Shown here in pieces: positions 3,944-63,984 of a stretch of DNA of 64,000 nucleotides. This stretch comes from a virus, in IMG/VR virus record IMGVR_UViG_3300012156_000141; one strand, written 5' to 3'. Positions within the stretch are counted from its first letter, which is position 1. Each line of letters opens with the position of its first letter. Below the pieces are notes generated by a model that was not told where the DNA came from, searched no databases, and saw only the letters and a program-made list of their open reading frames with translations. The position numbers were made by a program, and so were the translations under genes.

Positions 3944-4067
3944 ATGGACATTCTCCTTTCCTAGTCAAAAAGTGCTTCAACGCACATAATATTAAGTCCT
4001 TCCGGCAGGCTCAATAATATTATGTGATAAATTTCATAAATGTTTATTATCCTCATGCAAAAAATCC

Positions 4068-4074
4068 CATAATA
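4068..4074 (+). promoter_or_regulatory. CATnnTA -10-like motif (representative copy of a recurring element)
   Basis: CATAATA 27 nt before the gmk-like start codon. More than 20 further copies are listed under findings. Confidence 0.65.
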
Positions 4075-4100
4075 CTGAAAATAAGAAAAAAGGAGTGTTT

Positions 4101-4673
4101 ATGAAATCACAATTGTTAGCTATTATTGGAAAATCAGGTTCTGGAAAAACCAGTATAAAAGCAGCTTTGGAAAAGAAAGGCTTTACTTCACTTCCAGAAT
4201 GTACAAATAGAGAGACTAGACCCGGAGAAGTAGATGGAAGAGAATACTATTTTTTTCCTGAAGAGAGAATGAAAAAGCCTGATGTTATTTGTAAAAAGGA
4301 ATATAAAACAACAAAAGGATTATGGATTTATGGGATTTTAAAGACAGAGTTAGAGGCAGATAAACAATATGTTGTAATTATTAACCCTTATCAGTATCAA
4401 GAATTAAAGAAAGAATATGAGGAGGCAGCAGACATAAATGTTTTTTACATAGATACTAATGAAGAGAATCGGATGACAAAACTGATTCAACGTGAGATGG
4501 AAAAACCCAACCCAGATTATCAAGAGTTATGTAGACGTTTTTGCACAGATGCATACGACTATTCAAATGACAATATCGATATGAAAAACTTAAGAAAAAA
4601 TGTCTTTTTGCTATATAACAATTATAAACAGTCTATTGAAAAAATGGTTGATGAATTGATGACATACATTTAA
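4101..4673 (+). CDS. Guanylate kinase-like nucleoside monophosphate kinase
   Basis: P-loop GKSGSGKT and TNRETRPGEVDGREYYF signature. ATG at 4101 follows AAGGAG. Confidence 0.85.
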   Translation: MKSQLLAIIGKSGSGKTSIKAALEKKGFTSLPECTNRETRPGEVDGREYYFFPEERMKKPDVICKKEYKTTKGLWIYGILKTELEADKQYVVIINPYQYQELKKEYEEAADINVFYIDTNEENRMTKLIQREMEKPNPDYQELCRRFCTDAYDYSNDNIDMKNLRKNVFLLYNNYKQSIEKMVDELMTYI

Positions 4674-4693
4674 TAAAAAGTAGAGGATGAAAA

Positions 4694-5821
4694 ATGAAGA
4701 ATTATAAATTTTCGGCAGCTATTGATGTAGATGATGTCCTTTTGGAATGTATTCCATTAGCCTGCCGCTTAGAAAACGAATTGAATAAAAATCAAAATAT
4801 GGATCCTAACAAAATTGTTAGCTGGATTAAACCAGGGACACCTTATGACTCATTATTAAAATATTTTAATGAGCCAGTATTTTATGAACAGCAAAGACCT
4901 TATCCGGGTGCCCAGGAGTTTGTTTGGAAATTAAGCAAGCAAGTAGAGATATTTATCGTAACTGCGGTTGAAGCAAATATCATGGGAATCAGAATGAAGC
5001 AAATCATGAAATACTTCCCGGAGATCAATCCTAAAAATATCATTCCGGCATCAAGAAAGGATGTTATTTCAGTTGACTTTGCCTTTGACGATGGAGCACA
5101 TAATATTTTAGCATCGAAAGCCACTTACCCAGTATTATTCAGGCGAGCTTGGAATCAACATTTAACGGGTATTCTTGCAGCGAATAACTATGATGAATTT
5201 TTAAACATTGTTGACTGCATTCAGAAATCTTACGCTTGTTCTGATATGGATTTTTCAGTACCACATGTATTATCGTTTGTTGGTGGTTCCGGTACCGGCA
5301 AGACAATGATAACAAATAAATTGCTTGAAAGAAATGATTTTGGCAGAGCAAAATCAACAACGACAAGAGCTCAGCGATTAGGAGAGTCATACGATGCTTA
5401 CAATTTTATTTGTGATGAAGAATTTAATCGAATGAAGGAAGATCACCTGTTTGCTGAAACAACGATGTATGCTGGAAATCAGTATGGTCTGGAACTAGCT
5501 GAGATTGATAAGGTTTTAGGCCAGAGAAAACATTGTGTTACAGTTACAGACATTAATGGTGCGATGGCCTTTAAGATGAGATATCCAACAGCTATTATTT
5601 ACATAAAAAGAGATAAAGACAAATTGATTGATGCCCTGATTCAGAGAGTAGAGTCCGGTGAAACAACCAGGCAAGATGTTGTAAACAGAATGGTTTCTCT
5701 TGATGATGAAAAGAAAAATGAAAAAGTCTGTGATTATATTATTAATAATAATGGTACGATTGAACAGGCACTTCACGAAATAGATACAATTCTAAGTTTT
5801 ACTAAGGAGGAACAACTTTGA
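4694..5821 (+). CDS. 5'(3')-deoxyribonucleotidase (HAD, NT5C-like) fused to a guanylate kinase-like domain
   Basis: N-terminal DVDDVL and DDGAHNI motifs. C-terminal GGSGTGKT, STTTRAQR...YNF and YAGNQYG. Confidence 0.8.
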   Translation: MKNYKFSAAIDVDDVLLECIPLACRLENELNKNQNMDPNKIVSWIKPGTPYDSLLKYFNEPVFYEQQRPYPGAQEFVWKLSKQVEIFIVTAVEANIMGIRMKQIMKYFPEINPKNIIPASRKDVISVDFAFDDGAHNILASKATYPVLFRRAWNQHLTGILAANNYDEFLNIVDCIQKSYACSDMDFSVPHVLSFVGGSGTGKTMITNKLLERNDFGRAKSTTTRAQRLGESYDAYNFICDEEFNRMKEDHLFAETTMYAGNQYGLELAEIDKVLGQRKHCVTVTDINGAMAFKMRYPTAIIYIKRDKDKLIDALIQRVESGETTRQDVVNRMVSLDDEKKNEKVCDYIINNNGTIEQALHEIDTILSFTKEEQL

Positions 5822-6123: not shown

Positions 6124-6227
6124 AGAGACGTAAGTCTCTTTTTTATTTAATATGTTTTTTAGTTATTCTTTTTATTTTCTTACATTATGTATATGAAATA
6201 GAAAACTAGAGAAAAAGGAGAATCGAT

Positions 6228-8282
6228 ATGGAATTTATTGAATTAAGAAAAAAGTTGCAGGAGAATTTTAGTGAAATGACAAAGGATGTTTCTCATCTAT
6301 TTGAGGTGGAATTAGATAAGGAGTCTCTGTGGAACTGTTACTTAGACAGCTTTCCTCTTGGTACCAACGATATTTTTAGAGAGAGAAGAGAGCATGACTG
6401 TAGTTGCTGTCGCCAGTTTATCAAGAACATTGGTAATGCTGTTGTAATCAAAGACAACCAAATCAAGACAGTTTGGGACTTTGATACAAATGATGATGTC
6501 TATCAGCCAGTTTTGAGTGCTATGTCTGAGTTTGTCAAATCACATGTTGTAAGTGAAGTGTATGTGAGCAAATTTAGTAAAATCGGGACAAAATGCAATC
6601 TTGAAGTTTTACCTACAGGGAAAACAATTGCCTGGAATCACTTTTATCTGGAACTTCCAGATGAATTTGTGGATAAAACTCATCGTTCAATAGGTGATAT
6701 TCAGGGCAATTTCCGGGATACCAGAAATGTTTTCAAAAGATCTCTTGATGAAATCTCAAAAGACAGCTTACTTACTGTACTTGAACTGATTGCACAAAAC
6801 TCCCTTTATAAGGGAGAAGAGTGGAAAGGCACTCTAAATGAGTTTCTAAACTACAAAAAAGCATATGAAAAGTTAACCTCAGAGGTTGAAAAGTCAAATT
6901 TTGCTTGGGAAAACTCTGTGAAGGTCGGCGGTGCTATTGGCAGAATTCGTAACCATAGTATAGGAACATTACTCACAAACATTAGTGAGGGAATGGATCT
7001 GGAAGGCGCTGTTAAAAAGTATGAGCAAATTGTTGCACCTTCTAATTACAAAAGGCCAAAGGCAATCTTCACAAAAAGAATGCTGGATGAAGCAAAAGAA
7101 ACACTTACTGAATTAGGCTATCTGGATTCTCTGGAACGAAGATATGCTAAAGCAGATGATATTTCTGTCAACAATGTTCTGTTTTTAAACAGAGATGCAG
7201 CCAAAAGGGTTATTGATGCAAATATCTTTGCAGAGATGGAAAGAGATGTTGTGGCTAATCCTAAGAAGTACTCAAAAGTGGAGGAAATCAGTATTGATCA
7301 CTTCATTGAAAAAGTATTGCCTACTGCTAATACACTTGAGGTTTACCTGGAAAATAAGCATTCCAGCCACATGGTATCATTAATTGCTCCAAAGAGAAAA
7401 GAAAGCAAGAGCATGTTTAAATGGAATAATGGGTTTAGTTGGGCTTATTCTGGTAACGTAACAGATTCAATCAAAGAAAGAGTAAAATCAGCTGGAGGAA
7501 GAGTCGATGGCGATTTGAGATTTTCAATTCAGTGGAATGATTCCTCTGAGTGGAGCCGCAATGATCTTGATGCCCATTGTATTGAACCTTCTGGTCGAGA
7601 AATTTATTATTCTCAGTATAGAAAACCAAGTGCTACGCCTAGTGGTGGACAGCTTGATGTTGACATCACAAACCCTGGCAAAGGCATCCCGGCGGTTGAA
7701 AATATCACATGGCTGGATAAGAAAAAAATGAAACCGGGTGTTTATAAATTCTTTGTTCATCAGTTTGCCAATAGAGGAGGCAGAGACGGCTTCCGAGCAG
7801 AAATTGAATTTGATGGAAAAATCTATTCATTTGATTACGACAAAGAATTGAGACAAAAGGAGAATGTTGTTGTAGCTGAAGTCGTATTAAGCTCTGATGG
7901 AACTTTTTCAATCAATGAGAAATTACCATCAAATGTATCCAGTCAGGAGATTTGGAATCTGAATACAAATCAGTTTGTCCCTGTCTCTGTGATGATGTAT
8001 TCACCAAACTATTGGGACGATCAGAAAGGCATTGGTAACAAACACTACTTTTTCATGTTAAAGGGCTGTGAAAATCCTGAGAATCCCAATGGATTTTACA
8101 ATGAATTTTTGAACCAGGAACTGGATAAGCATAAAAGAGTGTGTGAGGCATTGGGATCAAAGATGAGAGTCGAAAAATGCGATGATCAGTTATCTGGCCT
8201 CGGGTTTTCATCAACTCAAAGAAATGAGCTTTTAGTAAAAGTAATTGGCTCGACAGAGCGAGTGATAAAAGTTAAATTTTAA
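6228..8282 (+). CDS. Conserved phage-type protein with a YfaP/DUF2135-like domain
   Basis: 684 aa. HDCSCCRQF motif and LRFSIQWN..DLDAHCIEP..GQLDVDIT..VENITW module. Family recalled from phage genomes, not searched. Confidence 0.6.
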   Translation: MEFIELRKKLQENFSEMTKDVSHLFEVELDKESLWNCYLDSFPLGTNDIFRERREHDCSCCRQFIKNIGNAVVIKDNQIKTVWDFDTNDDVYQPVLSAMSEFVKSHVVSEVYVSKFSKIGTKCNLEVLPTGKTIAWNHFYLELPDEFVDKTHRSIGDIQGNFRDTRNVFKRSLDEISKDSLLTVLELIAQNSLYKGEEWKGTLNEFLNYKKAYEKLTSEVEKSNFAWENSVKVGGAIGRIRNHSIGTLLTNISEGMDLEGAVKKYEQIVAPSNYKRPKAIFTKRMLDEAKETLTELGYLDSLERRYAKADDISVNNVLFLNRDAAKRVIDANIFAEMERDVVANPKKYSKVEEISIDHFIEKVLPTANTLEVYLENKHSSHMVSLIAPKRKESKSMFKWNNGFSWAYSGNVTDSIKERVKSAGGRVDGDLRFSIQWNDSSEWSRNDLDAHCIEPSGREIYYSQYRKPSATPSGGQLDVDITNPGKGIPAVENITWLDKKKMKPGVYKFFVHQFANRGGRDGFRAEIEFDGKIYSFDYDKELRQKENVVVAEVVLSSDGTFSINEKLPSNVSSQEIWNLNTNQFVPVSVMMYSPNYWDDQKGIGNKHYFFMLKGCENPENPNGFYNEFLNQELDKHKRVCEALGSKMRVEKCDDQLSGLGFSSTQRNELLVKVIGSTERVIKVKF

Positions 8283-8759: not shown

Positions 8760-8867
8760 AAAATAATTCTAAGAATTTTTTGAAAAATATATTTATGTTA
8801 AATCTTTTCACTACATAATAACTTTGAAATTAAGATATTAGGAGAACATTAGAAGAAAGGAAATAGT

Positions 8868-11578: not shown

Positions 11579-11640
11579 GTTGTAATGATTTTTTTCTTAC
11601 ATATTATTGATATCTAAAGAAAGAAAAGGAGAAAGAAATA

Positions 11641-13574: not shown

Positions 13575-13630
13575 CTTTTTAGACTAAATAAAAAAGCATA
13601 ATATATACAAATATTCAAAGGAGGGTGTGT

Positions 13631-16816: not shown

Positions 16817-16893
16817 AGTTAAAGCCATATATTTCTTGTTTTTGAATATCCCAAAATTCATACTAAAGTCAGGAAAATAGAAAGGAGATATTT

Positions 16894-19944: not shown

Positions 19945-20162
19945 AAGCAGAGTACCACATCCTCTAAGGGTGTGGGTGAATGCGTTCGATTTTACATACT
20001 ATTTAGAGGAAATAAAAGTAATTGGATTTTATGAGTTAAATAAAAGTATTCCGGTAAAACGGATAGCGGTCTAATGAACAGACCATGGCGGTACGAACCC
20101 TAACGGGTCACGGCTACCTGAAACTATCACTTCTAAGCATTGCGAAAGTGGTGGTAGTTCAT
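19945..20162 (+). mobile_element. Non-autonomous IS200/IS605 derivative: left-end hairpin plus TnpB-type right end/omegaRNA scaffold, no tnpB
   Basis: Hairpin CCACATCCT-CTA-AGGGTGTGG (19955-19975). 3' part CCGGTAAAACGGATAGCGGT...CTATCACTT..AAGTGGTGGTAGTTCAT. Bases 20025-20162 closely match the reverse complement of 48804-48944. Confidence 0.7.
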
Positions 20163-21880: not shown

Positions 21881-21947
21881 TTAAAATGCCTGGTTTTTGT
21901 AAATTCAAATTTCATAATAATTTTGAATATAAAATCAGGAGGGCTAT

Positions 21948-24904: not shown

Positions 24905-25025
24905 AAACAGAAAATTGATTGTAATACGATTTATCAAAAACAAAAAGAGGCCTTTGGGTTTCTTTTTGTTTTTTTAAGAGTATTTTTTACATAATAGTAT
25001 TAACAACAATATTTAGGAGGTAATT

Positions 25026-32350: not shown

Positions 32351-32543
32351 AAAAACCTCCTTTTGGTTTTTAATAGAATGTGTAAATATAAATTCAAATA
32401 AAAGTTATTTGCGTATATGCAATAATGATTAAAATACAAAAAGTAAGATGATTTAGTAAAAACGATTTAAAGAATTATGAATTATTCTTTTGTTTTTTGA
32501 AAAATATTTTCTAACATAATAAAGATAAAAGGATGGTGTGCTT

Positions 32544-33122: not shown

Positions 33123-33233
33123 AAACAAACATAAATGTTTCTTTTTCATAAAAGTTGAAAATCTTTCTAACATAATACTTCTAGGTAAGTAACAAACCAG
33201 AATTGAAACAATTAAAATTTCAGGAGGTAGGCA

Positions 33234-35483: not shown

Positions 35484-35652
35484 TAAAAAGCGGAAATAAC
35501 CGCTTTTTTAATTTATCTAAAAAAAAACCGAAACATAATATGAGTGTATACGAAACATGGAGTAAATTAAAAAATTAAATGAAGTAGGAGGATGTTCACC
35601 ATTTCCGTTCCATGTCGGATTAGTTAGCTGCTAAGGTGAACAAAGTAAGTTT

Positions 35653-37158: not shown

Positions 37159-37476
37159 TCCTCATTCCTTTTTTCTTAACAAATTTCTTTTACATTATTA
37201 TTATGGTGTATTTTTTTTGAGATGACACCTAATTTTAGAAAAAAACTAAAAAATATATTTTCTTTCACACAATTCCCGGAAGAGTATCGTACCCTTAAAG
37301 TATTGTCTATTACTAAATTGAAATATAAAATGTAATTTAATTATATACTATAGTTCTTCAAAATGAAATATTATTGTCAGAAAACAAAAGAAATATAAAT
37401 TAAATTATTAATATCGTTTTAATTAATACTCTATGCAGATTCTTGCATAATGTTCATGATAAGGGAAGGAGTGGGC

Positions 37477-38981: not shown

Positions 38982-39042
38982 AGTTTATCTGAGGAAAAAT
39001 CATACATACTATTTCCATCAAAGAATAGATGGAGGATTACAT

Positions 39043-39750: not shown

Positions 39751-39896
39751 AAATAGAAATTTAGTTGTATGCGATTAGTCAAAAACAAAAAGAGGCATTT
39801 GTGCCTCTTTTTATAAAAATTATCATTCAAAAATTAATTATTTTAAAAGCAAATCGTGCATTATATAAATATAATTTATAAAGGAGACACATAAAC

Positions 39897-41021: not shown

Positions 41022-41234
41022 ATCATATTAATAAAGACATGAGTAGTAAAAACTATTCGTGTTTTTTAAATTCTCACATTATATAAGTAAATTTGAAAAG
41101 AGGAAATTGCATGAAAGAGTGGAAGCTTATTGTATAATAATTATTTTTATCAGATGCAATACAGGTTGTTAAACAAATAACATAAAATAAACCAAATATA
41201 AAAAATCCTACATACTAAAAATAAACGGGAGGGT

Positions 41235-45947: not shown

Positions 45948-46294
45948 GGATTCTGATTTTAGCTATTAATTCAAAAAGTACCTTTTGGTATCTAGCAATA
46001 AAGTGATCTGTTCTTCCTCTGGAAGCGACTTAAGATGTTCCTGAGCAAACTCTGGATTTTTTTGTAAAAGTTCAATATAGTTTAAGGTGTCTTGTAAATT
46101 CAAAATACAACATCCATTCAATGATAAATACAATTTTATAATAAAAGAAAACTTACATAATAATATTGTAGGATGAAAGAAAGAGATTTATAATTTGTTT
46201 TTGTCTATTTATACAGCTACAGGCGATCCATTTAAAAACTTCCTTCATTAAAAAGAATATTTTAAAGATAATTAGTTTTTAAGCTTATCGCATT

Positions 46295-46320: not shown

Positions 46321-46379
46321 GTCCAAAATATAATATCTGACATACTAATAATAAACTATATTTCATTTGGAGGTATTTG

Positions 46380-49395: not shown

Positions 49396-49545
49396 GAAAA
49401 ACTCCTTTCAAATGTATATTTGTAAATAGTATGTTGGGTAGACTTTATATTAAAATGAAATTTTAAATTATATAGTGAGAAATGTAAAAGTATAAGACCA
49501 AAGATTGCATTATATAAAAAGAAATATAATATCTGGGAGGAATTT

Positions 49546-51291
49546 ATGAATAAAAAAGAGTTAAATGCGAGTTGTATAAATATATTAATGATGTCAGAAG
49601 AGCTTATCTCTGATTACACTGAAGAGAAAACAGAATCACTTAGTAATGCTCGGTTTGAAGAAGAAGAAATCTTCTATGAGCAAAGTTATAATAAGCTTAT
49701 TGATTCTTGTGCAAAAATAAAAAATAATGCTTTGATTTTTTTTCTCTTAAATAAAAATGAAGCAAAGTGTGAGTTAATAGACCCACAAACCTATGAGATA
49801 TCTACAGAATACGGGAAGCACCAAATTGCAGTAAGTCAATTAAAAAGTTTATTGGGCAAAGACTTTAATGCTATAACAAAAAAGATAAAAGGTCAAGAGG
49901 ATAGTGCAAAGAAACAAAAAGAAGAAAAACCAGTAAAACAAGGTGAATCCAGTTGTACTGGAGTTCGAAGCTCGACAAGTCGAGTTTGCATAACACCAAC
50001 TCCAATAGAACAAGGTCCTGTAGATAAACAACAGCCCGAGTCAAAAGAACCTAAGATAGAGAAGTCTAAAGTAATCGAGCCCAAGATAGCAAAGCCTATT
50101 GCAGCTGAGTCAGTTAATCCTAAAAAGAAAAATAACACAAAAAAACAAAAGGAAGATAAAAAACAAAAAGCTGACTTTGATTCTAACACTGTCCCAGACC
50201 TTGATTTTTCGCTTGATTTTATGGATGATGAATTCGAAGATTTATTACTACAGGAAAATGATATTGAGATAGCTATAAAAAAACCGGTTTGGAATCCAAT
50301 CTCTAAACCTGTAAGGAATAAAGAACAACTATTAGAAAATAAAGCAGAAAACCAGATTATTGCAGAGAAAGAGTCAGAGCCAAAGATTCCGAAAGTGATA
50401 GTTCGGGATCCAAAAGAATCAGAGGTTCTAGCTACTAATCATATTTTATTAAAGAAACCTAAAAAAACAGAAATTAGAAATGACGGTGAATCGGAAGAGA
50501 CTAAAGCTGAAAAGGTAAAAGGAATAATGGTTTCTTCTAAAAAAATAAAACAGAACAGCCCGGCAGAAGAAATAGAAGAAGATATTCCCATCATCTCAGA
50601 TAATGATGATAAGCTAACTAATTTCATTCAGCCTCGAACTCCGATGAAATCGGATTTGCCAGCTAATGGATTTACTAATAGCAATATGCAAATCGAAAAT
50701 GCAGATAACATAGTTATTTCAAAACAAGATTTGATTATAGACAATTACCTTATTACCTATATGAATCAGAACAAAGAAAAGGTTAAAACGGTTTCTATAT
50801 TAGTAACACCTTTAAAACTAGATGCTCAGCAGAGTAATGCGATTCCTATAATGGTTATTGCAAAAAGTGGAAGAGAGGTAAAGACTGTTGTTTCTCAGAA
50901 TATAGAAAGACCATCAATTCCCATTACAATTGGTGATGAAACCTTTATTATCAGAGGAAGTTATAATGAATCAGGATTCCAGACATTATTATATTCCAAG
51001 GGTGATAATAATTATGAGACAAAGAAAGAATTACATAAGATTCGCCCTAGAATAATAGAGAACAATAGCCACAATACAAAAGTTGTAGGAGATGATATTA
51101 TTCATATCTTTCCACTTTCGACTAAAAATAATGGAGAGAACTATGTGAAAGTGTTAGTTTGCATAGAAAATAAAAAAAATAAAAGTTTCCAAACAGAATT
51201 AACCTCACATAATAATTTCATGATGGGTAATTATGAAATATCAAATAGTTGGAATGGTGACAAATTAGACACAAAAATAAAAATAAAATGA
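49546..51291 (+). CDS. Hypothetical protein with two ordered regions joined by a long K/E/P-rich linker
   Basis: 581 aa, GGAGG RBS, preceded by CATTATA. Confidence 0.75.
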   Translation: MNKKELNASCINILMMSEELISDYTEEKTESLSNARFEEEEIFYEQSYNKLIDSCAKIKNNALIFFLLNKNEAKCELIDPQTYEISTEYGKHQIAVSQLKSLLGKDFNAITKKIKGQEDSAKKQKEEKPVKQGESSCTGVRSSTSRVCITPTPIEQGPVDKQQPESKEPKIEKSKVIEPKIAKPIAAESVNPKKKNNTKKQKEDKKQKADFDSNTVPDLDFSLDFMDDEFEDLLLQENDIEIAIKKPVWNPISKPVRNKEQLLENKAENQIIAEKESEPKIPKVIVRDPKESEVLATNHILLKKPKKTEIRNDGESEETKAEKVKGIMVSSKKIKQNSPAEEIEEDIPIISDNDDKLTNFIQPRTPMKSDLPANGFTNSNMQIENADNIVISKQDLIIDNYLITYMNQNKEKVKTVSILVTPLKLDAQQSNAIPIMVIAKSGREVKTVVSQNIERPSIPITIGDETFIIRGSYNESGFQTLLYSKGDNNYETKKELHKIRPRIIENNSHNTKVVGDDIIHIFPLSTKNNGENYVKVLVCIENKKNKSFQTELTSHNNFMMGNYEISNSWNGDKLDTKIKIK

Positions 51292-51293
51292 TG

Positions 51294-51322
51294 TTGACAC
51301 AGACTGTGTTCGGGTTTATAAT
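51294..51322 (+). promoter_or_regulatory. Perfect consensus sigmaA promoter upstream of the sigma-factor operon
   Basis: TTGACA (51294-51299), 17-nt spacer, TATAAT (51317-51322). Confidence 0.85.
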
Positions 51323-51431
51323 TAACATCACAAAAGCAAACAGATGTTCGAAAAAATAAATAATCCCACAAGTTAACATTTTGCTTGGATTAAACTATAA
51401 TATATATGCTAATGTTTAGGAGGAATGAAAT

Positions 51432-51650
51432 ATGGAGAATGTTGAAAAGTTATATGAGAACATATCAAATATGATCTTAAAAGAAGATGTTGAACCATCA
51501 GCGTCTCCGATAGAGATGTATAACTACTGGGTACAAAAAAGCGGAGTATGTGTCGATAATTTAGCACTGGCTTCTAGATTACTTGATTTTATCGAAGAGG
51601 CTTTGGTAAATAAAAATATTTTATCAGAATTTTGCAAAGGAGGGAACTAA
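51432..51650 (+). CDS. Small hypothetical protein coupled to the sigma gene
   Basis: AGGAGG RBS. Its stop directly abuts the sigma ATG. Confidence 0.7.
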   Translation: MENVEKLYENISNMILKEDVEPSASPIEMYNYWVQKSGVCVDNLALASRLLDFIEEALVNKNILSEFCKGGN

Positions 51651-52775
51651 ATGCTAGACGAGATTTTTTTACTGGAAGCTATTGAAGATGATGAGGTTGA
51701 TTCATTAGATGATGTCGATGCTGATATAGATGATGATACTGATATTGTTGAGAAAGCAAAAAAGCAGGATGATCTTAGTAAAGAAGAGCGGAGTCAAATT
51801 TTTATTGATATTATGAGTCGATATAATCAGGGCAAACAAATTGCTAAACCTGCAGTAATTACGATTAAAAGTATATTAAAACTTGATGAATCAGCAAAAT
51901 TACCAAATATTATTTGGAAAAAAGAAATAGTCGATGAGATTGACCAAGTCGAATATAAAGAGGCTGTAAGCGAATATAATAGAGGGATGCAAATAACTCT
52001 TGATGCTAAGGCAGAATTGTTAGAGAAACTTGATCATTGGATCTATTATGTAATCAATAAGCACTTCCCTACATTTAAACTTCATACAAAGGATCTTTAT
52101 CAGGAAGGAGTCATTGGAATCCTAAAAGGTATTGATAACTATGATGCAAAAAGAAGTATGCCAACCACCTATTTTTTTTTCTACGTAAGACATGAGATGA
52201 CAGAATATATTAATTCTAATATCAATAAGACAACATCTCATTACTCTACTAGCATCGTAAAAGTTAAAAAAGCAATTAATCATTTTGCTAGAGAAGGTCG
52301 GGAGTGGACAATAACTGATATTGCCCAGGAAACAGGGTTATCGACAGAAACAATTATGCAGGCTGTTAAAATTATGGAATACAGCAAAGAAAAGCACTAT
52401 GATTCGGTTGATTACCTTGACTCTGAAATTAGTCAAAATGTTGCATCACCAGAAATAGAAATCCTTAAAAATGAAGCGAATGAAATCCTATATAATGCGG
52501 TCAGATCTTTACCAGAAGATGAAGCTTCGATTATTGTTCTGAAATATGGAGAGAGTTTATCATATAAAAATATTGCAGAGAAATTAAACATTCCGATTGA
52601 TAAGGTGAAAAAGAAAAAAAACTCTGCAATCAGAAAACTGAGAAAGAATAAAACAATTCATGGTAACTTCAACCTAAATAAAGAGGATAAAGCAATTAAC
52701 TCAAAAGAACTTGGTGTTATCCCAATAAGTGTTGGCGAAAATATTATGGAACAGCTCTTAGCAGAAGAAATATAA
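51651..52775 (+). CDS. RNA polymerase sigma-70 family factor, group 3 (SigB/SigF/SigG-like)
   Basis: Region 2 DLYQEGVIGILKGIDNYD, region 3 TITDIAQETGLS, region 4 LPEDEASIIVLKY..SYKNIAEKL..AIRKLR, acidic N-terminus. Confidence 0.9.
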   Translation: MLDEIFLLEAIEDDEVDSLDDVDADIDDDTDIVEKAKKQDDLSKEERSQIFIDIMSRYNQGKQIAKPAVITIKSILKLDESAKLPNIIWKKEIVDEIDQVEYKEAVSEYNRGMQITLDAKAELLEKLDHWIYYVINKHFPTFKLHTKDLYQEGVIGILKGIDNYDAKRSMPTTYFFFYVRHEMTEYINSNINKTTSHYSTSIVKVKKAINHFAREGREWTITDIAQETGLSTETIMQAVKIMEYSKEKHYDSVDYLDSEISQNVASPEIEILKNEANEILYNAVRSLPEDEASIIVLKYGESLSYKNIAEKLNIPIDKVKKKKNSAIRKLRKNKTIHGNFNLNKEDKAINSKELGVIPISVGENIMEQLLAEEI

Positions 52776-52936: not shown

Positions 52937-52990
52937 TAAAATGATAAAAAACAGGCATCTCACTTAGTGATATGTCTGTTTTTATTACGA

Positions 52991-53257: not shown

Positions 53258-53460
53258 ATTAATCTCCTTAGTGAAAATTGATTTATTCACATATATATCC
53301 ACAATATATTGTGTATAACTACATATATATAATAGTCCATTAAATCGGATTTGACAACATTTCTTAAAAAATTTTTCAAAAATCAATCCAAAAACCATTT
53401 TTTTTAATTTATCATCTAACATATTCATTATGAAAACTAAAATATAAGGAGAATTTAATT

Positions 53461-54099: not shown

Positions 54100-54115
54100 G
54101 AAAGATCGGTTTAAT

Positions 54116-54595
54116 ATGCCCAAAAAAATAATATCTGAAGATAAAAAGAACATTTTCATTAAAGCTTGTGAAGATATAGATCCGTTAAAGGTTCTGCCTG
54201 AAAAACTATTAAGAGCAAGGCAACTAACTGAAATGCTATCGAGAGATGAGATTGAGGCAACTATGTTATATAAGTGTGGATGCCCTTGTGAATGGGTTAA
54301 ATCATCTTATAAATATTGTGATAAAAACGATACTAAAACTAGAAAACCTCGGTATAGTAATGATTGTACTCGCTGTTGGGTAGATAATATAACAGAAGAC
54401 GTTACGGAAACAGATTATTTGGAATCGAAACAAGAGTTATTAAGTAAATTAAACAACTTTGAAAAATTCAGATTGACCTCAGAACAATTAGAACAAATAT
54501 TATCAATTCTTGATTGGGATAAAACCTATGATTTTGATAAATTTGTTCTAAAAATAAAAAAAATAAAATCCCAATATTCAGAAAAAGATGAGTGA
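54116..54595 (+). CDS. Hypothetical Cys-rich protein
   Basis: CGCPC..C..CTRC pattern, followed by a terminator. Confidence 0.65.
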   Translation: MPKKIISEDKKNIFIKACEDIDPLKVLPEKLLRARQLTEMLSRDEIEATMLYKCGCPCEWVKSSYKYCDKNDTKTRKPRYSNDCTRCWVDNITEDVTETDYLESKQELLSKLNNFEKFRLTSEQLEQILSILDWDKTYDFDKFVLKIKKIKSQYSEKDE

Positions 54596-54667
54596 GAGTT
54601 CTCACTCTTTTTATTTTGTTTTTTTTTACACCATTATATACACAAATACAGATATAAGGAGGTTTAA

Positions 54668-57600: not shown

Positions 57601-58789
57601 GGCTTATTTAAAATATTACTATCCAGTTGAATATATGTGTGAAGCCTTAAACTTTATAGAAAAGATTGCCGATATTCCATCAGCACTAAATGACTGCCGT
57701 GAAATGAATGTTGTTGTTCTTCCACCGGAAATAAACAAGTCTGAGTTCGGTTTTAGTACTTATAATGGGCAAATCTTATTTGGACTTGACTCAATCAAAG
57801 ATACAAAAGGAGCTTGTGTCCAGAGAATTTTGGATGAAAGAGAAGCAAAAGGTGAGTTCCTGTCATTTAAGAGTTTGCTGCTAAAAAATGTAATAGATAA
57901 ATCAACTTGTGAAGCAATGATTAAAGCTGGTGCAATGGATGAATTTAATAAAAATCGTATGGCCCTTGCTAACTATTACAGTGAGGTATCAGATTTAGTT
58001 GGTAGTATTGCAAAGAAGAAGAAAGATATTGAAACAATATCATTAGAACTAGAAGAAAACCCTAAAGATGAAAAGATAGAAAAACGCTTAATGACTGCTA
58101 ATAATGCTTTGAATCTACTATATGAACAGTTATCTGTGATAAGGATTGTAAACTGTCCAGAAGATCATGATCAAAGAATGAAAAACGAGAAAGATGTCTT
58201 GGGTTTTTTTGTTTCTGCACATCCGATGGACAGCTATCGGGAACCTGAATCTATGGGCTGTGTTAGCATTCATGATTTAAGTGATAACGGAAAAGAAGTC
58301 AGCATTATTGGATTAATCGAATCGGTAAAAAACACAGTTACCAAAAAAGATCAAAAGCCAATGGCAGTTTTCCAACTCGAAGACAAAACCGGAAGCATAG
58401 ACGTTTGTTGTTTTCCGAAAAGTTATGCAAAGTGTGGCGAGATGATACAAGAGGATGCTGTTGTTAAAATGGCGGGTTATGTACATTCCGAAGAGGTTAT
58501 ATCTAACTCTGATGATGAAGATGATGAAAAAGTCAATATCCGGTTGCAGTTCTATGTAAATAGGATAGAGACAATAAAGCCGGATCTATCCAGTATTAAG
58601 ATTGAAGTACCAAGTATGTTGGAGTGGAATGATACGCTAAAACGTTTAAAAGAAAAAAAACTGGTATGCAAAGAAGGCCATCCGCTTGTTATATTGGATA
58701 AATTAACTGGCGAATTCAGAAGCACATATTGTTATATAAAAGAGGCTGTTTTACTTGATAAGCAATTTGTAACAGCAATAAGCAACTAA
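54668..58789 (+). CDS. dnaE: DNA polymerase III alpha subunit (C family)
   Basis: PHP motifs HCHSENS and TDHG, GPGRGSAAGS, FERFLN..SMPDIDSDF, KFDFLGL, YAFNKSHAAAY, C-terminal OB fold. Confidence 0.97.
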   Translation: MKKRLKSILHCHSENSRYDSTMSVKDMCNKAKELGYEALTLTDHGTLTAIDDFVSAAKDVGIRPIPGVEVYMQDNSNVLDSRFHLVLLAVDDLGYQCITKIVSESNRHIDEKGYPRVTKEILEKYCAKKPYHGHIIATSACVGGVLAGILISPLSLDKEISKLKKKQSKYEDPSSEEHKKNLKAFADKIEKLEEQKKIKNELKALSKKPYKKKEKAVEKLKGTEEYEEALAKLEAEKAESEAAKERLEDINVSIAVLQRDKTSINGRIKDSEKSHNRFNEFQSKIDEIESSKLPFDKLYEMAKEEALYYDELFGHNNFYIEIQYHGYLGDNGEPIEEASFKHLAKMAQELNIPIAAGQDAHMVDSSKESIRARQIIRSLPYAKNSFVFSVSEGDKQLHLKDEHDFKKALSYVLTESEVETAIQNTYEICSRCECSFEYGTHYPKYTQLPLGETADSLLRKMAYEKINSRYPESEMWTAVHKERLEYELSVIAQMGYSDYFLIVQDFLNFGRKLGYLTKENVKYLTQNIKSLTLKEFVDFVDAHNEVPGFVIGPGRGSAAGSIVAYLVGITDIDPIKYDLLFERFLNKDRVSMPDIDSDFGREIRDLVVEYCKMLYGVETVANIVTKGYIAPRGAIRNAGRIIGVEKEQQDYYKVLNDRIAKMVPNEVGINFAKCEELLRQPFIPDERDDSKSKKWKSNANELIDQAKMIEGAFLNYGMHAAGVIIADGNPIDDYVPLMLDEKSGDMKVQCDMVQAEETHGLLKFDFLGLRTLDIITEAIRTIYKNTGRIIDVLKIPFDSKVFKYIFATGKTGCVFQFESAGMRQMLRESRPDNFEDLIALVSLYRPGPMDYIPLYIDNKTHPESIVYLCPELKPILKKTYGVIVYQEQVMEIFQKLAGYSLSQADNVRRFMSKKKMDKLVHERESFIDGDFERAIDGCLKRGISLEVANEIFDQMVEFAKYAFNKSHAAAYSLVAYITAYLKYYYPVEYMCEALNFIEKIADIPSALNDCREMNVVVLPPEINKSEFGFSTYNGQILFGLDSIKDTKGACVQRILDEREAKGEFLSFKSLLLKNVIDKSTCEAMIKAGAMDEFNKNRMALANYYSEVSDLVGSIAKKKKDIETISLELEENPKDEKIEKRLMTANNALNLLYEQLSVIRIVNCPEDHDQRMKNEKDVLGFFVSAHPMDSYREPESMGCVSIHDLSDNGKEVSIIGLIESVKNTVTKKDQKPMAVFQLEDKTGSIDVCCFPKSYAKCGEMIQEDAVVKMAGYVHSEEVISNSDDEDDEKVNIRLQFYVNRIETIKPDLSSIKIEVPSMLEWNDTLKRLKEKKLVCKEGHPLVILDKLTGEFRSTYCYIKEAVLLDKQFVTAISN

Positions 58790-58815: not shown

Positions 58816-58942
58816 AACCTTATGTGCCATTTCATTGGAATCTGACATTATATTATAGAAAAATTAATAGAACAAAGCCATAAAAATGAAAAATTTGAAG
58901 ATGATATTACATATTTTCATTAGAAGGAAAAGGAGGTCTATT

Positions 58943-59776: not shown

Positions 59777-59863
59777 ATAATAAAAAAGGGAGTAATCCCT
59801 TTTTTATTTTGCATTTTTATTTTGCATTATATCTTTGAAGTGAGTTGATAAAGGGAGGAATAT

Positions 59864-61435: not shown

Positions 61436-62074
61436 ATGAGATTAAATATTGCAAAAGTTGATGACAACAGAAGAATTGTTTTAGGTACTGTTAAATCAGT
61501 AAAGGTTGGAAAAGATGGAGAGGTTGTAAATGTACAGCTTGAAGGAACCGTTTGGGATAAAGATGACCAGGTTGAAAAGACGGAAACTATTGATATTGCG
61601 TTCTGGAACAATGATGAAATTAAGAACGCAGACAGAGTTGTTGCTGCAAAAGTAAGCGAAGGTTCTGTTATTTCTGTTTTGATTCATGAAAAGGATGGCA
61701 AGGTCTCCGGTAATAATTTTAAGTACAAAGGGCACTGGGTTATTCCTGCAAGAGGTGAACAGAAGGAACGCAACATTTTCCATGGTGTAGTGGCTTCTAT
61801 GACTCCTGATAAAGAGGGCCGCTATGTAAGAGTATCTATGCCGGTTGATGGAAAAAATGACGAGGAACCAACTTGGCATTCCATGACGTTCTGGAATAAT
61901 GAAAAATCTAATGTCGCAGACAGAGCTAAAAAATGTCTGGGCAAGAGAACTGTTAAGAATAGTGAAGGCGAAGATGTTGAAAAAAGTGCAAGAGCTTTGA
62001 TTATTTGTGGCGAGAATCGTCCTTACAATGGAACAGCCCAGTACAGCGCCTATGATTTTGTTTTACTTAGCTAA
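61436..62074 (+). CDS. Third tandem-OB-fold protein (SSB-like)
   Basis: Internal repeat IDIAFWNN..ADRV / HSMTFWNN..ADRA. Confidence 0.55.
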   Translation: MRLNIAKVDDNRRIVLGTVKSVKVGKDGEVVNVQLEGTVWDKDDQVEKTETIDIAFWNNDEIKNADRVVAAKVSEGSVISVLIHEKDGKVSGNNFKYKGHWVIPARGEQKERNIFHGVVASMTPDKEGRYVRVSMPVDGKNDEEPTWHSMTFWNNEKSNVADRAKKCLGKRTVKNSEGEDVEKSARALIICGENRPYNGTAQYSAYDFVLLS

Positions 62075-62164
62075 ACTTTAAACCCACTTTTGTGGGTTTT
62101 TTATTATATGCTAAAAAAACTTACATTATATTTATATAGAAAATAAAAAAGGAGAAATAAAAAT

Positions 62165-62893
62165 ATGACATTAATGCTAAAGAGCGATGTTATTGGTAAG
62201 GAATTTGAAGTTGATACTTATGAAGCTGGCTCTGGTAAATTAGGAATTAAAGATGATTGTCTATACAATATTCTTGTTAATGAAATGCCAAGCGAATTAG
62301 AAATCAATCATGATATTGTTGCAATTACAGCAACTGCTGATTATTGTGCGGTAAGATGTACGATTACTGATATTAATGGGCGTAAAGTGCAAGCATTCAA
62401 TGATGTGAGTCTTGGCCATCTGGAAAAAAATGATGATTTCGTTAAACAACATCCACTAACACAGGCGGTTCAATCAGCAGTAGCGGCAGCGGTTAAACGG
62501 TACTTGGGTTGGCCAAGACTATTAACAAGTGACGGTTCTGATTCAACAACTGTAATCGCTTATGATGAAAGTGAGACTAAGAAAACTGAAACAGAAACTG
62601 TAGCAGAAAATACAGAAGTAACTGAAACATCAGAAGCTCAGACAGGTGCAGAGGCAGATGTTAAACCGGAAGCTAAGAATAAAGCCCAAGAAGTTGCTCA
62701 GGAAATTGAATCTAAAGAATTAGATGATTACTCCACTGAAGAACTTGGTGCTATGGTGATTACGTCTGGCACACATAAGGATAAAGCCATTGCAGAAGTG
62801 TGGGAGAGTCAACCTTCATGGTTTGACTTTATTCAGAAATACAGTTCTGAAAAGTACAAATATGCAAAGGAATATGCAAAAAGAAAATCTTAA
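62165..62893 (+). CDS. Hypothetical protein with a C-terminal G.H.DK.I.EV...P.WF domain
   Basis: AAGGAG RBS, E/T-rich linker, followed by a hairpin at 62903-62923. Confidence 0.7.
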   Translation: MTLMLKSDVIGKEFEVDTYEAGSGKLGIKDDCLYNILVNEMPSELEINHDIVAITATADYCAVRCTITDINGRKVQAFNDVSLGHLEKNDDFVKQHPLTQAVQSAVAAAVKRYLGWPRLLTSDGSDSTTVIAYDESETKKTETETVAENTEVTETSEAQTGAEADVKPEAKNKAQEVAQEIESKELDDYSTEELGAMVITSGTHKDKAIAEVWESQPSWFDFIQKYSSEKYKYAKEYAKRKS

Positions 62894-62934
62894 AGGAGGG
62901 AAGAGAGTGAGGAAACTCACTCTCTGTTAAATAT

Positions 62935-63852
62935 ATGGCTGATAAAAAATGGAAAGACCATTCCTTATCAAAAAAAAACCTTGAGATGATAGATAAGGAA
63001 GGATTTATCGTCTTTTATGATTTGGAGACTACTGGGTTTAGTAGCAAGAATGATAGAATCATACAGTTCTCAGCAATTCGCTGCAGGTTAAAAGACTTGG
63101 AAGAAGTTGAAAAACTTAATTTATTTATTAAATGTCCATTCAGTGTTCCAACAAAAATTACAGCAATTAATCACATTGATGATGCATTGTTAGAAGAAAA
63201 AGGAGTCGAAGAACACATTGCGTTTGAAAAAATAAATAATTTCATAGTGCCCGGTGATATCATTTCGGGTTATAACAATGAGTCATTTGATGACAAGTTT
63301 CTTACTGCTTTGTATAATACATATAGACAAACATTAGATATCAATAAAAATATCGACGTTTATAAGTATGCGAAGACTGTCATTGATCCAGAAAAGTTAA
63401 TGATCAAAGATGAGAAAACCGGAAAAATGAAACCAAGTTACAAATTAATAAATGTGGTGAATCATTATGATCCGGAAAATACATATAAATTTCATGATGC
63501 TTCAGATGACATTGCGGCAACAAAGTTTGTTTTCAGAAAATTATTGGAAGATAGCAAGAAACATATTGCAGAAGCTAAAGAGGAAGAGGAACAAAGAAAA
63601 TCTATTCCGAGACAAAAAGTAAAAGTTTCTTCACTTGGTTTTTACTCACCAAGTCAGAATATTCAAAGGGTTTATGTTAATACCGATCAAGGAAAGTACT
63701 ATTATGATCATGTAAAACACTTATGGAATACGAAAAGCGGAAATCTGGATTCCATAGATGCTGAAGATATGAAAAATCAAGCATTTTCAATGATTGGAGT
63801 AACGAATGAGGGTGATTTTTATAAAGAAATGAGAAAAATTAAGTTTGCCTAG
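62935..63852 (+). CDS. DEDDh 3'-5' exonuclease (DnaQ/epsilon-like)
   Basis: YDLETTG, GYNNESFD, HDASDD. Confidence 0.9.
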   Translation: MADKKWKDHSLSKKNLEMIDKEGFIVFYDLETTGFSSKNDRIIQFSAIRCRLKDLEEVEKLNLFIKCPFSVPTKITAINHIDDALLEEKGVEEHIAFEKINNFIVPGDIISGYNNESFDDKFLTALYNTYRQTLDINKNIDVYKYAKTVIDPEKLMIKDEKTGKMKPSYKLINVVNHYDPENTYKFHDASDDIAATKFVFRKLLEDSKKHIAEAKEEEEQRKSIPRQKVKVSSLGFYSPSQNIQRVYVNTDQGKYYYDHVKHLWNTKSGNLDSIDAEDMKNQAFSMIGVTNEGDFYKEMRKIKFA

Positions 63853-63984
63853 CTAAATTAGAAAGAGCCTATTAGGTTCTTTTTTTGCTTTACTATACTA
63901 TATGACCTGTTCATTGTTTTGAAATTAACATTAGGGATTTACTCACATAATATTTTTATAAAAATAACAGATGGAGGATTACAT

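What the first reader, a model, noticed from the sequence alone, without database searches (positions are those of the whole stretch)
3983..63960. Element-wide CATnnTA promoter-like motif: a private sigma regulon?
Seen: CAT(A/T)(A/C/T)T(A/G) sits mostly 20-60 nt upstream of the start codon of nearly every unit, often just after a terminator. Plus-strand copies: 4068, 6183, 8814, 11600, 13597, 16859, 19995, 21913, 24990, 32515, 33171, 35534, 37446, 39005, 39859, 41077, 41211, 46156, 46341, 49508, 53427, 54632, 58846, 59825, 62124, 63946. Minus-strand copies lie ahead of 3943, 37158 and 49395, with a CATTCTA variant ahead of 32350. No fixed -35 box was evident by eye. Known: CATnnTA is the -10 consensus of sporulation sigmaG-type factors. 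Inference: transfer, replication and accessory genes are all read by the element's own SigF/G-like sigma (51651-52775), or by the host forespore sigmaG, which would tie conjugation and replication to sporulation.
Basis: partly seen in the sequence, partly recalled or inferred. Interest (0 to 1): 0.85.

Follow-up and report, generated by a model that had tools for sequence, protein, structure and literature searches.

The report
Private sigma-factor promoters across a giant conjugative element
Nearly every transcription unit of this giant conjugative element of a Clostridia-type bacterium starts with the same unusual promoter (CATAATA, no -35 box), most likely read by the element's own sigma factor, whose gene alone has ordinary host promoters guarded by DNA-damage (LexA) operator sites.

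Summary
CAT(AA|TA|AC)TA occurs 26 times on the sense strand of about 6 kb of intergenic DNA, against 3.0 expected, usually 23-63 nt before a start codon. The host box TATAAT is not enriched.

The motif behaves as a -10 hexamer with C at -12. It has a C/T extension at -16/-15, a pyrimidine-purine start site at the expected distance, and no -35 box.

It recurs in five related elements that carry the same sigma family (42-58% identity) and in both flanks of the 246.5-kb source contig. It is not enriched in 240 kb of a Lachnospiraceae host chromosome.

The 374-aa sigma is not a SigF/G orthologue. It belongs to an unannotated sigma-70 clade with an invariant His at the position of E. coli sigma-70 Gln437. 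Q437H is the classic change that suppresses a -12 T-to-C promoter mutation.

Only the sigma operon has consensus sigmaA promoters. They carry clostridial-type LexA boxes in 6 of 8 loci.

Best reading: host sigmaA under SOS control makes the element sigma, which then reads the element-wide private regulon. This is analogous to, but not homologous with, pBS32 SigN. I found no support for the sporulation link. No transcript data exist.

The scan has noted comparable private-promoter systems on other elements, but not this family.

The parts
51651..52775 (+). Element sigma factor, 374 aa. It has an acidic N-terminus, sigma-70 regions 2, 3 and 4, and a roughly 40-aa C-terminal tail. His181 sits at the position of E. 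coli sigma-70 Q437.
   Evidence: Pfam Sigma70_r2, r3 and r4. Best NCBIfam hits are generic and far below the SigF/G cut-offs. Family alignment with invariant H181. Alignments to SigA and SigG. Fold matches full-length sigmaA chains.
51432..51650 (+). Conserved 72-aa ORF. Its stop codon abuts the sigma start codon (TAAATG). Function unknown; it could be a sigma partner or anti-sigma.
   Evidence: Sequence. Homologues sit upstream of sigma in L003, L010, L012 and L011 at 27-32% identity. No Pfam hit.
51294..51322 (+). P1: perfect host sigmaA promoter, TTGACA-17-TATAAT.
   Evidence: With P2, it is one of the only two intergenic matches of 11/12 or better in the 64 kb. The same 12/12 promoter is found in L012, L004 and L011.
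51337..51350 (.). LexA (Cheo/SOS) box CAAACAGATGTTCG, which is GAAC-N4-GTTT on the other strand. It lies just downstream of P1.
   Evidence: It is the only CGAACNNNNGTTYG match in the window, against 0.02 expected. Boxes lie at the same promoter in L003, L012, L013, L004 and L010. Clostridial consensus from PMC4234289.
51373..51401 (+). P2: second sigmaA promoter, TTAACA-17-TATAAT (11/12), with no LexA box.
   Evidence: Equivalent TTAACA-16-TATAAT promoters occur in L012 and L004.
51204..51214 (+). CTCACATAATA inside the 3' end of the upstream gene, about 86 nt before P1. Candidate sigma-dependent promoter for positive feedback.
   Evidence: Similarly placed CATAATA/CATACTA words lie upstream of the sigma operon in L003 (9496), L013 (9630) and L001 (9766).
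4068..4074 (+). CATAATA promoter before the guanylate-kinase-like gene and the NT5C-guanylate kinase gene.
4018..4024 (-). CATAATA, 81 nt before the minus-strand gene 3254-3943.
6183..6189 (+). CATTATG promoter before 6228-8282.
8814..8820 (+). CATAATA promoter before the ABC/PspA/OmpA unit.
11600..11606 (+). CATATTA variant before 11641-13236.
13597..13603 (+). CATAATA promoter before the paralogue pair upstream of virD4.
16859..16865 (+). CATACTA promoter before the VirD4 coupling protein gene.
19995..20001 (+). CATACTA, 184 nt before 20179. Assignment is less certain.
21913..21919 (+). CATAATA promoter before the VirB4 ATPase gene.
24990..24996 (+). CATAATA promoter before 25026 and the lysozyme/NlpC-P60 gene.
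32374..32380 (-). CATTCTA variant, 30 nt before the Mob_Pre relaxase gene (minus strand).
32515..32521 (+). CTAACATAATA promoter before 32538.
33171..33177 (+). CTAACATAATA promoter before the SpaA/TED adhesin gene.
35534..35540 (+). CATAATA, 119 nt before 35653.
37199..37205 (-). CATAATA, 47 nt before the minus-strand gene 36352-37158.
37446..37452 (+). CATAATG, 31 nt before the likely true start codon (ATG after GGAGTG).
39005..39011 (+). CATACTA promoter before 39043.
39859..39865 (+). CATTATA promoter before the choline-binding-repeat protein gene.
41077..41083 (+). CTCACATTATA, 158 nt before 41235.
41211..41217 (+). CATACTA promoter before the 41235-45411 operon.
46156..46162 (+). CTTACATAATA, 221 nt before 46377.
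46341..46347 (+). CTGACATACTA promoter before the TerD-like 786-aa gene. It is kept at the same distance in L003 and L004.
49427..49433 (-). CATACTA promoter before the HSP20 gene (minus strand). It is conserved in L003, L004, L010 and L012.
49508..49514 (+). CATTATA promoter before the 581-aa gene. It is conserved in L003 and L004.
53426..53432 (+). CATTATG promoter before the SSB-like gene.
54632..54638 (+). CATTATA promoter before the DnaE-type Pol III alpha gene. It is conserved in L003.
58846..58852 (+). CTGACATTATA promoter before the second SSB gene.
59825..59831 (+). CATTATA promoter, 39 nt before a 75-aa gene. It is conserved in L003.
62124..62130 (+). CTTACATTATA promoter before 62165.
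63946..63952 (+). CTCACATAATA promoter before the gene that starts at 63985.

Best explanation
The CAT(A/T)(A/C)TA words are the -10 elements (positions -12 to -6) of a private promoter class. The consensus is roughly C(-16)T(-15)nA-CATAATA, with no -35 box and a pyrimidine-purine start site 6-7 nt downstream.

These promoters are read by host core RNA polymerase carrying the element's own 374-aa sigma-70-family factor. That factor naturally has His where primary sigmas have the Gln (E. coli Q437) that contacts base -12. This explains C in place of T at -12. Its -35-reading residues are replaced, which explains the missing -35 box.

The sigma gene and a translationally coupled 72-aa gene are the only unit with consensus host sigmaA promoters. 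One of these promoters is flanked or overlapped by LexA operators. The inferred circuit runs in four steps:
1. DNA damage leads to LexA cleavage.
2. sigmaA then transcribes the sigma operon.
3. The element sigma switches on more than 30 units in this window: T4SS, relaxase, adhesins, nucleotide metabolism, SSBs and the DnaE polymerase.
4. A CATAATA promoter upstream of the operon probably gives positive feedback.

Shown here: motif enrichment, strand and position bias, conservation in relatives, absence from a host chromosome, the sigma residue pattern, and the promoter and operator layout. Inferred, not shown: that this sigma binds these promoters, where transcripts actually start, and the SOS induction.
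For: 1. Enrichment and strand bias: 26 sense vs 3.0 expected and 7 antisense. 24 of 33 upstream regions carry the motif.

2. Promoter geometry. If CATAAT occupies -12 to -7, position +1 is a purine in 50 of 55 pooled sites and is preceded by a pyrimidine. C at -16 occurs in 30/55 and T at -15 in 37/55.

3. Co-occurrence with the sigma family. Sense counts against shuffle expectation: L003 14 vs 1.7, L010 12 vs 3.0, L012 19 vs 4.1, L011 11 vs 1.9, element part of L001 9 vs 1.8. Both flanks of the window's own contig also carry the motif.

4. Footprinting. Orthologous upstream regions keep the word at 32-45 nt from the start codon while the flanking sequence has diverged beyond alignment.

5. 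Host control. In 240 kb of the Lacrimispora amygdalina chromosome the motif is 15 vs 10.8 with no strand bias, while TATAAT is 57 vs 26.4. In the window the pattern is reversed: motif 23 vs 2.8, TATAAT 9 vs 8.3. CTNACATWMTA occurs 11 times in the 64-kb window (1.04 expected) but only 44 times in the 5.5-Mb genome.

6. Sigma determinants. Region 2.4 reads TTYFFFYVRHEMTE against SigA STYATWWIRQAITR. The His is invariant in 21 family members. Q437H in sigma-70 suppresses a -12 T:A to C:G promoter mutation (PMC2613000). The -35-reading segment of SigA, TRERIRQ, aligns with IDKVKKK here.

7. Control region. The only two intergenic sigmaA matches of 11/12 or better in 64 kb precede the sigma operon. 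The single CGAACNNNNGTTYG match (0.02 expected) lies between them. The same promoter-plus-box layout is found in L003, L012, L013 and L004, and partly in L010.

8. Precedent. pBS32 SigN has a LexA-repressed sigmaA promoter, a weak constitutive one and an autoregulated one, and its regulon is confined to the plasmid (PMC6751061).
Against: - There are no transcript data. No RNA run holds this DNA, so start sites and induction are untested.
- The link between sigma and motif rests on co-occurrence and on one residue analogy from E. coli.
- The sigma keeps a conserved region 4 although no -35 element is seen.
- In the most distant relative (L011) and in L013 several units lack the strict word.
- L001 and L011 show no LexA box, so SOS gating is not universal.
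- The chromosomal parts of L001 and L013 are too short to serve as controls.
- The host of this particular contig is unknown.
Confidence: 0.72

Rival explanations
1. The host forespore sigma G (or sigma F) reads the motif, so that transfer and replication are tied to sporulation.
For: The word CATnnTA equals the sigmaG -10 consensus (established knowledge for B. subtilis; one search states that C. difficile promoters are very similar). Lachnospiraceae commonly sporulate.
Against: - sigmaF/G promoters have both a -35 and a -10 element (PMC3789822). None of 55 sites has the -35 consensus (recalled from memory as GHATR or GYATR) at a 17-18 nt spacing.
- The motif is not enriched and shows no strand bias in 240 kb of a host chromosome.
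- The motif travels with the element sigma family across relatives.
- The element sigma has its own -12 determinant, His where SigG has Gly.
- The control region carries SOS boxes, not sporulation signals.
Confidence: 0.04
2. The words are weak or activator-dependent host sigmaA promoters. A -10 box with C at -12 still has A-11 and T-7. The element sigma would then have a narrower or different target set.
For: CATAAT differs from TATAAT at one base. Host SigA in a relative is canonical.
Against: - There is no -35 box and no TG extension, and the invariant C sits at the one position where sigmaA strongly prefers T.
- TATAAT itself is not enriched in the element but is enriched in a host chromosome.
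- The sigma operon shows that the element uses perfect sigmaA promoters where it needs them.
- No other candidate motif for the element sigma emerged from the 6-mer screen.
Confidence: 0.1
3. Another element-encoded factor reads the motif, such as an unrecognised RNA polymerase or a DNA-binding activator.
For: Many element genes have no annotation, for example 49546-51291. Only 84 kb of the 246.5-kb contig was inspected.
Against: - No RNA polymerase-like gene was seen.
- The large neighbour of the sigma gene is TerD-like, not polymerase-like.
- The motif has the geometry of a sigma-70-type -10 box with a start site at the right distance.
- The sigma carries the matching residue change.
Confidence: 0.08
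4. The motif is not a promoter. It could be an RNA-processing site, a leader element, or a site for nicking or methylation.
For: It lies in 5' leader regions at a fairly fixed distance from start codons.
Against: - It typically follows terminators and precedes the Shine-Dalgarno sequence by about 25 nt.
- It shows -10-like base conservation and start-site dinucleotide statistics.
- It is absent from the one unit that has sigmaA promoters.
Confidence: 0.03

Closest known systems
SigN (ZpdN) of Bacillus subtilis plasmid pBS32 (PMC6751061)
   Same: - The sigma is plasmid-borne and its regulon is essentially confined to the element. That regulon includes nucleotide-metabolism and replication genes.
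- The sigma gene is driven by a strong LexA-repressed sigmaA promoter, a second sigmaA promoter and a sigma-dependent promoter.
- pBS32 also carries a PHP/DnaE-like polymerase, a DHH/RecJ-like protein and guanylate kinase, all co-oriented.
   Different: - There is no detectable sequence similarity between the two sigmas (BLASTP E 1.4; 199 vs 374 aa).
- SigN promoters have both -35 and -10 elements.
- pBS32 is typed as non-mobilizable, whereas this regulon includes a complete T4SS and spans at least 84 kb of an element of at least 246 kb.
- The candidate autoregulatory promoter lies upstream, not downstream, of the sigmaA promoters.
E. coli sigma-70 Q437H altered-specificity mutant (Waldburger et al. 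1990, as reviewed in PMC2613000)
   Same: His at the region 2.4 position that faces base -12, paired with C instead of T at -12.
   Different: Here the His is a natural, family-invariant residue in a divergent sigma. It is combined with loss of the Trp pair and of the -35-reading residues. Specificity has not been measured.
Sporulation sigma G / sigma F promoters (-10 CATnnTA)
   Same: The same seven-base -10 word.
   Different: The sigma is not an orthologue (36-41 bits vs cut-offs of 321-457). Its region 2.4 residues differ. There is no sigmaG/F-type -35 element.
Tn916 split sigma factor Sig7-8 (Gomberg and Grossman, bioRxiv 10.64898/2026.10.01.756105)
   Same: A conjugative element of Firmicutes that is kept silent until its own sigma is made, with an autoactivating switch.
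   Different: Sig7-8 is a two-subunit sigma described as acting at one promoter, Psig7. Here a single full-length sigma appears to serve dozens of unit-by-unit promoters and seems to be SOS-gated.
Phage sigma cascades and -35-less late promoters (T4 gp55 with TATAAATA; SPO1 gp28 and gp33/34). Recalled from memory.
   Same: Host sigmaA makes an element sigma, which then redirects host core polymerase to a short, -10-only promoter word that repeats before each unit.
   Different: This is a T4SS-bearing element, not a virion-forming phage. The sigma retains regions 3 and 4, unlike gp55. No clamp or co-activator dependence is evident.
'Hodor' conjugative megaplasmids of gut Bacillota (PMC12934698)
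   Same: Size over 200 kb, T4SS (VirB4, VirD4), several sortases with surface-protein modules, Phage_lysozyme2 domains and TnpB insertions (searches compared).
   Different: Hodors have 44-47% G+C and MOBH-like relaxases. This element has 33% G+C and a Mob_Pre relaxase. Rep_3 and ParAB were not looked for. That paper does not mention a sigma factor or promoters.

Membership tests
SigF/SigG sporulation sigma factors | Scores above the curated cut-off of the equivalog models (TIGR02850 sigG 457 bits; TIGR02885 sigF 321 bits; NF006071 372 bits). | tested here: not met
   36.2, 41.2 and 41.6 bits.
SigF/SigG sporulation sigma factors | Region 2.4 sequence of the SigF/G type (PMIIGEI[RQ]R). | tested here: not met
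   The element sigma has FYVRHEMTE. Clostridial SigG has PMIIGEIRR and Geobacillus SigF has PMIIGEIQR.
SigF/SigG-type promoters | A -35 element (recalled from memory as GHATR / GYATR) 17-18 nt upstream of the -10 CATnnTA. | tested here: not met
   0 of 55 pooled sites at a spacing of 17 or 18 nt.
Sigma-70 family (groups 1-3 architecture) | Regions 2, 3 and 4 are present and the fold matches solved sigma factors. | tested here: met
   Pfam r2, r3 (weak) and r4. PDB sequence hits to FliA, SigF and SigA. Foldseek top hits are full-length sigmaA chains at probability 1.00.
pBS32 SigN family | Sequence homology to SigN. | tested here: not met
   BLASTP E 1.4.
SigN-like circuit (functional analogy) | The sigma gene sits behind a LexA-operated sigmaA promoter and a second sigmaA promoter, with a candidate autoregulatory promoter. 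The regulon is confined to the element. | tested here: met
   Layout. Confinement. This is sequence inference only; no expression data exist.
LexA (Cheo-box) operators of Bacillota | GAAC-N4-GTTC/T palindrome overlapping or adjoining a promoter. | tested here: met
   51337 in the window; L003 9594 and 9630; L012 9585 and 9615; L013 9808 and 9837; L004 8128; L010 9419. Consensus from PMC4234289. LexA binding itself was not tested.
Tn916 Sig7-8 split sigma | Two separate polypeptides supply the sigma-2 and sigma-4 functions. | tested here: not met
   One 374-aa protein holds regions 2 and 4. The adjacent 72-aa ORF has no sigma domain.
Hodor megaplasmids | Rep_3/ParA/ParB backbone, MOBH-like relaxase, 44-47% G+C. 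| tested here: inconclusive
   G+C is 33% and the relaxase is Mob_Pre, which argues against close membership. The Rep/Par genes lie outside the DNA inspected.

The most novel reading that the evidence does not exclude
An unannotated clade of sigma-70 factors, carried only by giant T4SS elements of Lachnospiraceae-type Clostridia, is a natural 'Q437H' sigma. It reads a -35-independent promoter with C at -12 (CTnACATAATA). It acts as an SOS-gated master switch that keeps an element of 246 kb or more transcriptionally silent until DNA damage, and then turns on conjugation, surface-adhesin and replication genes unit by unit.
Probability: 0.55. Interest if true: 0.72.

Novelty: new variant of a known kind. 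Interest (0 to 1): 0.66.

Why it matters
- It would explain how a very large conjugative element stays cheap to carry. With no host-readable promoters except one SOS-gated operon, the whole element is off by default.
- It offers a natural test of the thirty-year-old Q437H result on how region 2.4 reads base -12.
- It gives a simple sequence rule (sigma gene plus CATAATA words) for delimiting these elements in metagenomes and predicting their transcription units.
- It predicts that DNA-damaging drugs would trigger transfer of such elements among anaerobic Firmicutes.

Tried and rejected
- Whole genome of the window: none is held.
- Near-identity searches of 10 kb against PLSDB plasmids and INPHARED phages found nothing.
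- Protein-level searches there found only distant sigmas, at most 27% identity over half or more of the query.
- Sequencing-run search found DNA holders only, labelled 'fungus metagenome', and no RNA run. I therefore did not use read laying, and no start-site evidence could be obtained.
- Search for a -35 element by per-position information content and by fixed-spacing tests for sigmaG, sigmaF, sigmaA and sigmaE-type boxes found nothing.
- I considered that the sigma's unknown neighbours might be a private RNA polymerase. The 786-aa protein is TerD-like and the 581-aa protein has no usable match.
- Complex prediction of the sigma with the 72-aa upstream protein gave no verdict (score 0.04). 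This is not evidence either way.
- The chromosomal flanks in L001 and L013 were meant as internal controls. They contain too little intergenic DNA (38 and 401 nt) to be informative, so a 240-kb host chromosome sample replaced them.
- The extended pattern CTNACATWMTA scarcely matches inside the Lacrimispora locus L004, where the C often sits one base closer, so that pattern is too strict for relatives.

Full report
**What the window is.** The 64-kb window has 33% G+C and a constant positive GC skew, and almost all genes lie on the plus strand. It encodes:
- a VirD4 coupling protein, a VirB4 ATPase, a Phage_lysozyme2/NlpC-P60 wall hydrolase, a Mob_Pre relaxase and a SpaA/thioester adhesin;
- nucleotide-metabolism enzymes, three SSB-like proteins, a DnaQ-like exonuclease and a 1373-aa DnaE-type polymerase;
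- one sigma-70-family protein of 374 aa.

The window sits at about 156-220 kb of a 246.5-kb metagenome contig. The flanks of that contig have the same organisation, with RecD2, RecJ, SbcCD-like and sortase genes. Nothing similar at the DNA level exists in PLSDB or INPHARED.

**The observation.** Counts against dinucleotide-preserving shuffles of the intergenic DNA:

| Word | Sense | Expected | Antisense |
|---|---|---|---|
| CAT(AA/TA/AC)TA | 26 | 3.0 +/- 1.7 | 7 |
| TATAAT | 13 | 9.4 | 14 |

C is only 12% of intergenic bases. Even so, C-first versions of the word are more frequent on the sense strand (36) than A-first (28), G-first (9) or T-first (30) versions. The strict word is present in 24 of 33 upstream regions of at least 40 nt, against 3.8 expected. 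A blind 6-mer screen of upstream regions returns three signals only: the ribosome-binding site, terminator T-tracts and this word.

**Anatomy of the motif.** I aligned 26 window sites, and then 55 sites pooled with the contig flanks and relatives. The conserved block is C(-16) T(-15) n A(-13) C A T A/T A/C T A(-6), numbered with CATAAT as -12 to -7.
- Twelve bases after the C there is a purine in 50 of 55 sites. It is usually preceded by a pyrimidine, which is what a transcription start looks like at the correct distance from a -10 hexamer.
- No position from -45 to -25 carries information beyond general T-richness. Much of that T-richness is the tail of the preceding terminator.
- The median distance from motif to start codon is 39 nt, which implies leaders of about 27 nt.

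**Comparative evidence.**
- The sigma has about 75 relatives, nearly all from metagenomes. One is in the isolate Lacrimispora amygdalina, a member of the Lachnospiraceae.
- Loci around relatives with 42-58% identical sigmas show the same enrichment in sense intergenic DNA: 14 vs 1.7, 12 vs 3.0, 19 vs 4.1, 11 vs 1.9 and 9 vs 1.8.
- Orthologous upstream regions (TerD-like gene, HSP20, the 581-aa gene, DnaE, the 75-aa gene) have diverged beyond alignment. They still keep the word 32-45 nt from the start codon.
- As a host control I took 240 kb of the Lacrimispora chromosome. There the word is at background (15 vs 10.8; 16 antisense) and TATAAT is enriched (57 vs 26.4). In the window the situation is the reverse (23 vs 2.8; TATAAT 9 vs 8.3).
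- The extended word CTNACATWMTA occurs 11 times in the window (1.04 expected) and 44 times in that whole 5.5-Mb genome, fewer than a reversed-pattern control.

The motif is therefore a property of the element family, not of the host.

**Who reads it.** The sigma is not a SigF/G orthologue. It scores 36-41 bits against models with cut-offs of 321-457. Its best solved relatives are FliA, SigF and primary sigmas at E 1e-13 or weaker. Its predicted fold matches full-length sigmaA chains.

In region 2.4 the three types align without gaps:

| Sigma | Region 2.4 |
|---|---|
| Element family | TTYFFFYVRHEMTE |
| Primary sigma (SigA) | STYATWWIRQAITR |
| Clostridial SigG | STYGVPMIIGEIRR |

The His, invariant in 21 family members, occupies the position of E. 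coli Gln437. The Thr at the position of Thr440 is retained. Q437H and T440I are the substitutions known to suppress a -12 T:A to C:G promoter mutation (PMC2613000). This is a specific, independent reason to expect this sigma to prefer C at -12. The segment of region 4.2 that reads the -35 box in primary sigmas (TRERIRQ) is IDKVKKK here, which fits the missing -35 element. I saw no RNA-polymerase-like gene. The large conserved neighbour is TerD-like.

**How the sigma itself is controlled.** In all 64 kb the only intergenic matches of 11/12 or better to TTGACA-N16-18-TATAAT are two promoters in front of a 72-aa ORF and the sigma gene. They are 51294 (12/12) and 51373 (11/12). Between them lies CAAACAGATGTTCG. 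It is the only CGAACNNNNGTTYG match in the window (0.02 expected), and it matches the clostridial LexA operator GAAC-N4-GTTT (PMC4234289).

The layout is conserved:
- A 12/12 or 11/12 sigmaA promoter has a LexA box inside its spacer and usually a second box just downstream in L003, L012, L013 and L004.
- There is a box in L010.
- There is a perfect promoter without a box in L011.
- A second TTAACA-16/17-TATAAT promoter without a box follows in the window, L012 and L004.
- A CATAATA-type word lies upstream of the operon in the window (51208, inside the end of the preceding gene), L003, L013 and L001. This suggests positive feedback.

**Model.** At rest LexA holds the strong sigmaA promoter, and the element is nearly silent because host sigmaA has nothing else to read. 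DNA damage removes LexA. The sigma accumulates, reinforces its own synthesis and directs host core polymerase to the private promoters in front of the transfer, adhesin, nucleotide-metabolism and replication units.

Each step after 'the sequences are there' is inference. No RNA data set holds this DNA.

**Comparison with known systems.**
- **pBS32 SigN** is the closest functional precedent. It has a LexA-repressed and a constitutive sigmaA promoter plus an autoregulated one, and a plasmid-restricted regulon rich in replication and nucleotide genes (PMC6751061). The proteins are unrelated at the sequence level (E 1.4). SigN promoters have a -35 box, and pBS32 is typed as non-mobilizable.
- **Tn916** is switched on by its own split sigma, Sig7-8, described as acting at one promoter (bioRxiv 10.64898/2026.10.01.756105).
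- **Phage sigma cascades** and T4's -35-less late promoters (from memory) are the conceptual parents.
- **'Hodor' megaplasmids** share size, T4SS, sortases and lysozyme domains, but differ in G+C and relaxase type. That paper does not mention sigma factors or promoters.
- **The sigmaG reading fails.** None of 55 sites has a sigmaG/F-type -35 element, taking the consensus from memory. The residues differ, and the control region responds to SOS signals, not sporulation signals.

**Verdict.**
- The SigF/G identity and the sporulation link are not supported.
- This is a new variant of a known kind, a mobile-element sigma with a private regulon. Four features are notable: its scale, its -35-less C(-12) promoter, the natural Q437H-type residue, and the conserved SOS gate.
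- The same scan has described analogous private-promoter systems on unrelated elements, but none with this sigma family.

Noticed in passing
window 31887-31897 (+): A full extended promoter word, CTTACATAATA, lies inside the Mob_Pre relaxase gene on the opposite strand. It could be an antisense promoter against the relaxase mRNA, or a chance match.
   Followed up: no
window 46377-48737 (+): The 786-aa protein with no Pfam hit is TerD-family-like by language-model features (0.98) and by predicted structure (TM 0.68-0.81). It is conserved in synteny just upstream of the sigma region in relatives.
   Followed up: partly
L004 8957-9700 (Lacrimispora amygdalina): A 247-aa ORF is inserted between the LexA-guarded sigmaA promoters (8121-8200) and the sigma gene (9869). 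Read by eye, its C-terminus looks like the zinc-ribbon end of a TnpB, but I did not check this with any tool. The insertion may uncouple the sigma from its SOS control in the only cultured carrier.
   Followed up: partly
L003 13305-19078; L012 12994-18215: In two relatives the DnaE gene is split by a LAGLIDADG homing-endonuclease or intein-like insertion. The window's copy (54668-58789) is uninterrupted.
   Followed up: no
L001 1-5500; L013 1-9475: Two relatives of the sigma region lie directly beside housekeeping genes (dnaG-rpoD-trmK; PTS, nrdR, shikimate pathway). Some family members are therefore integrated in chromosomes rather than carried on plasmids.
   Followed up: partly
window 52776-52990 and sigma residues 334-374: The sigma has a conserved C-terminal tail of about 40 aa after region 4 (consensus GNF..L.REEKALN...GIVPI..GE.LM.ELD) and an acidic N-terminus that resembles region 1.1. 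Neither has an assigned role. A docking function is conceivable, for example to a replication protein.
   Followed up: no
L014 (pBS32 40000-84215): pBS32 shares the type of cargo seen here: a PHP/DnaE-like polymerase (28% identical over 656 aa), a DHH/RecJ-like protein, guanylate kinase and co-oriented genes. The SigN analogy may reflect a wider class of self-replicating, sigma-driven elements.
   Followed up: partly
window 46001-56000 (sequencing runs): The only public runs that hold this DNA are labelled 'fungus metagenome' (2018). The element's habitat may therefore not be the human gut.
   Followed up: no
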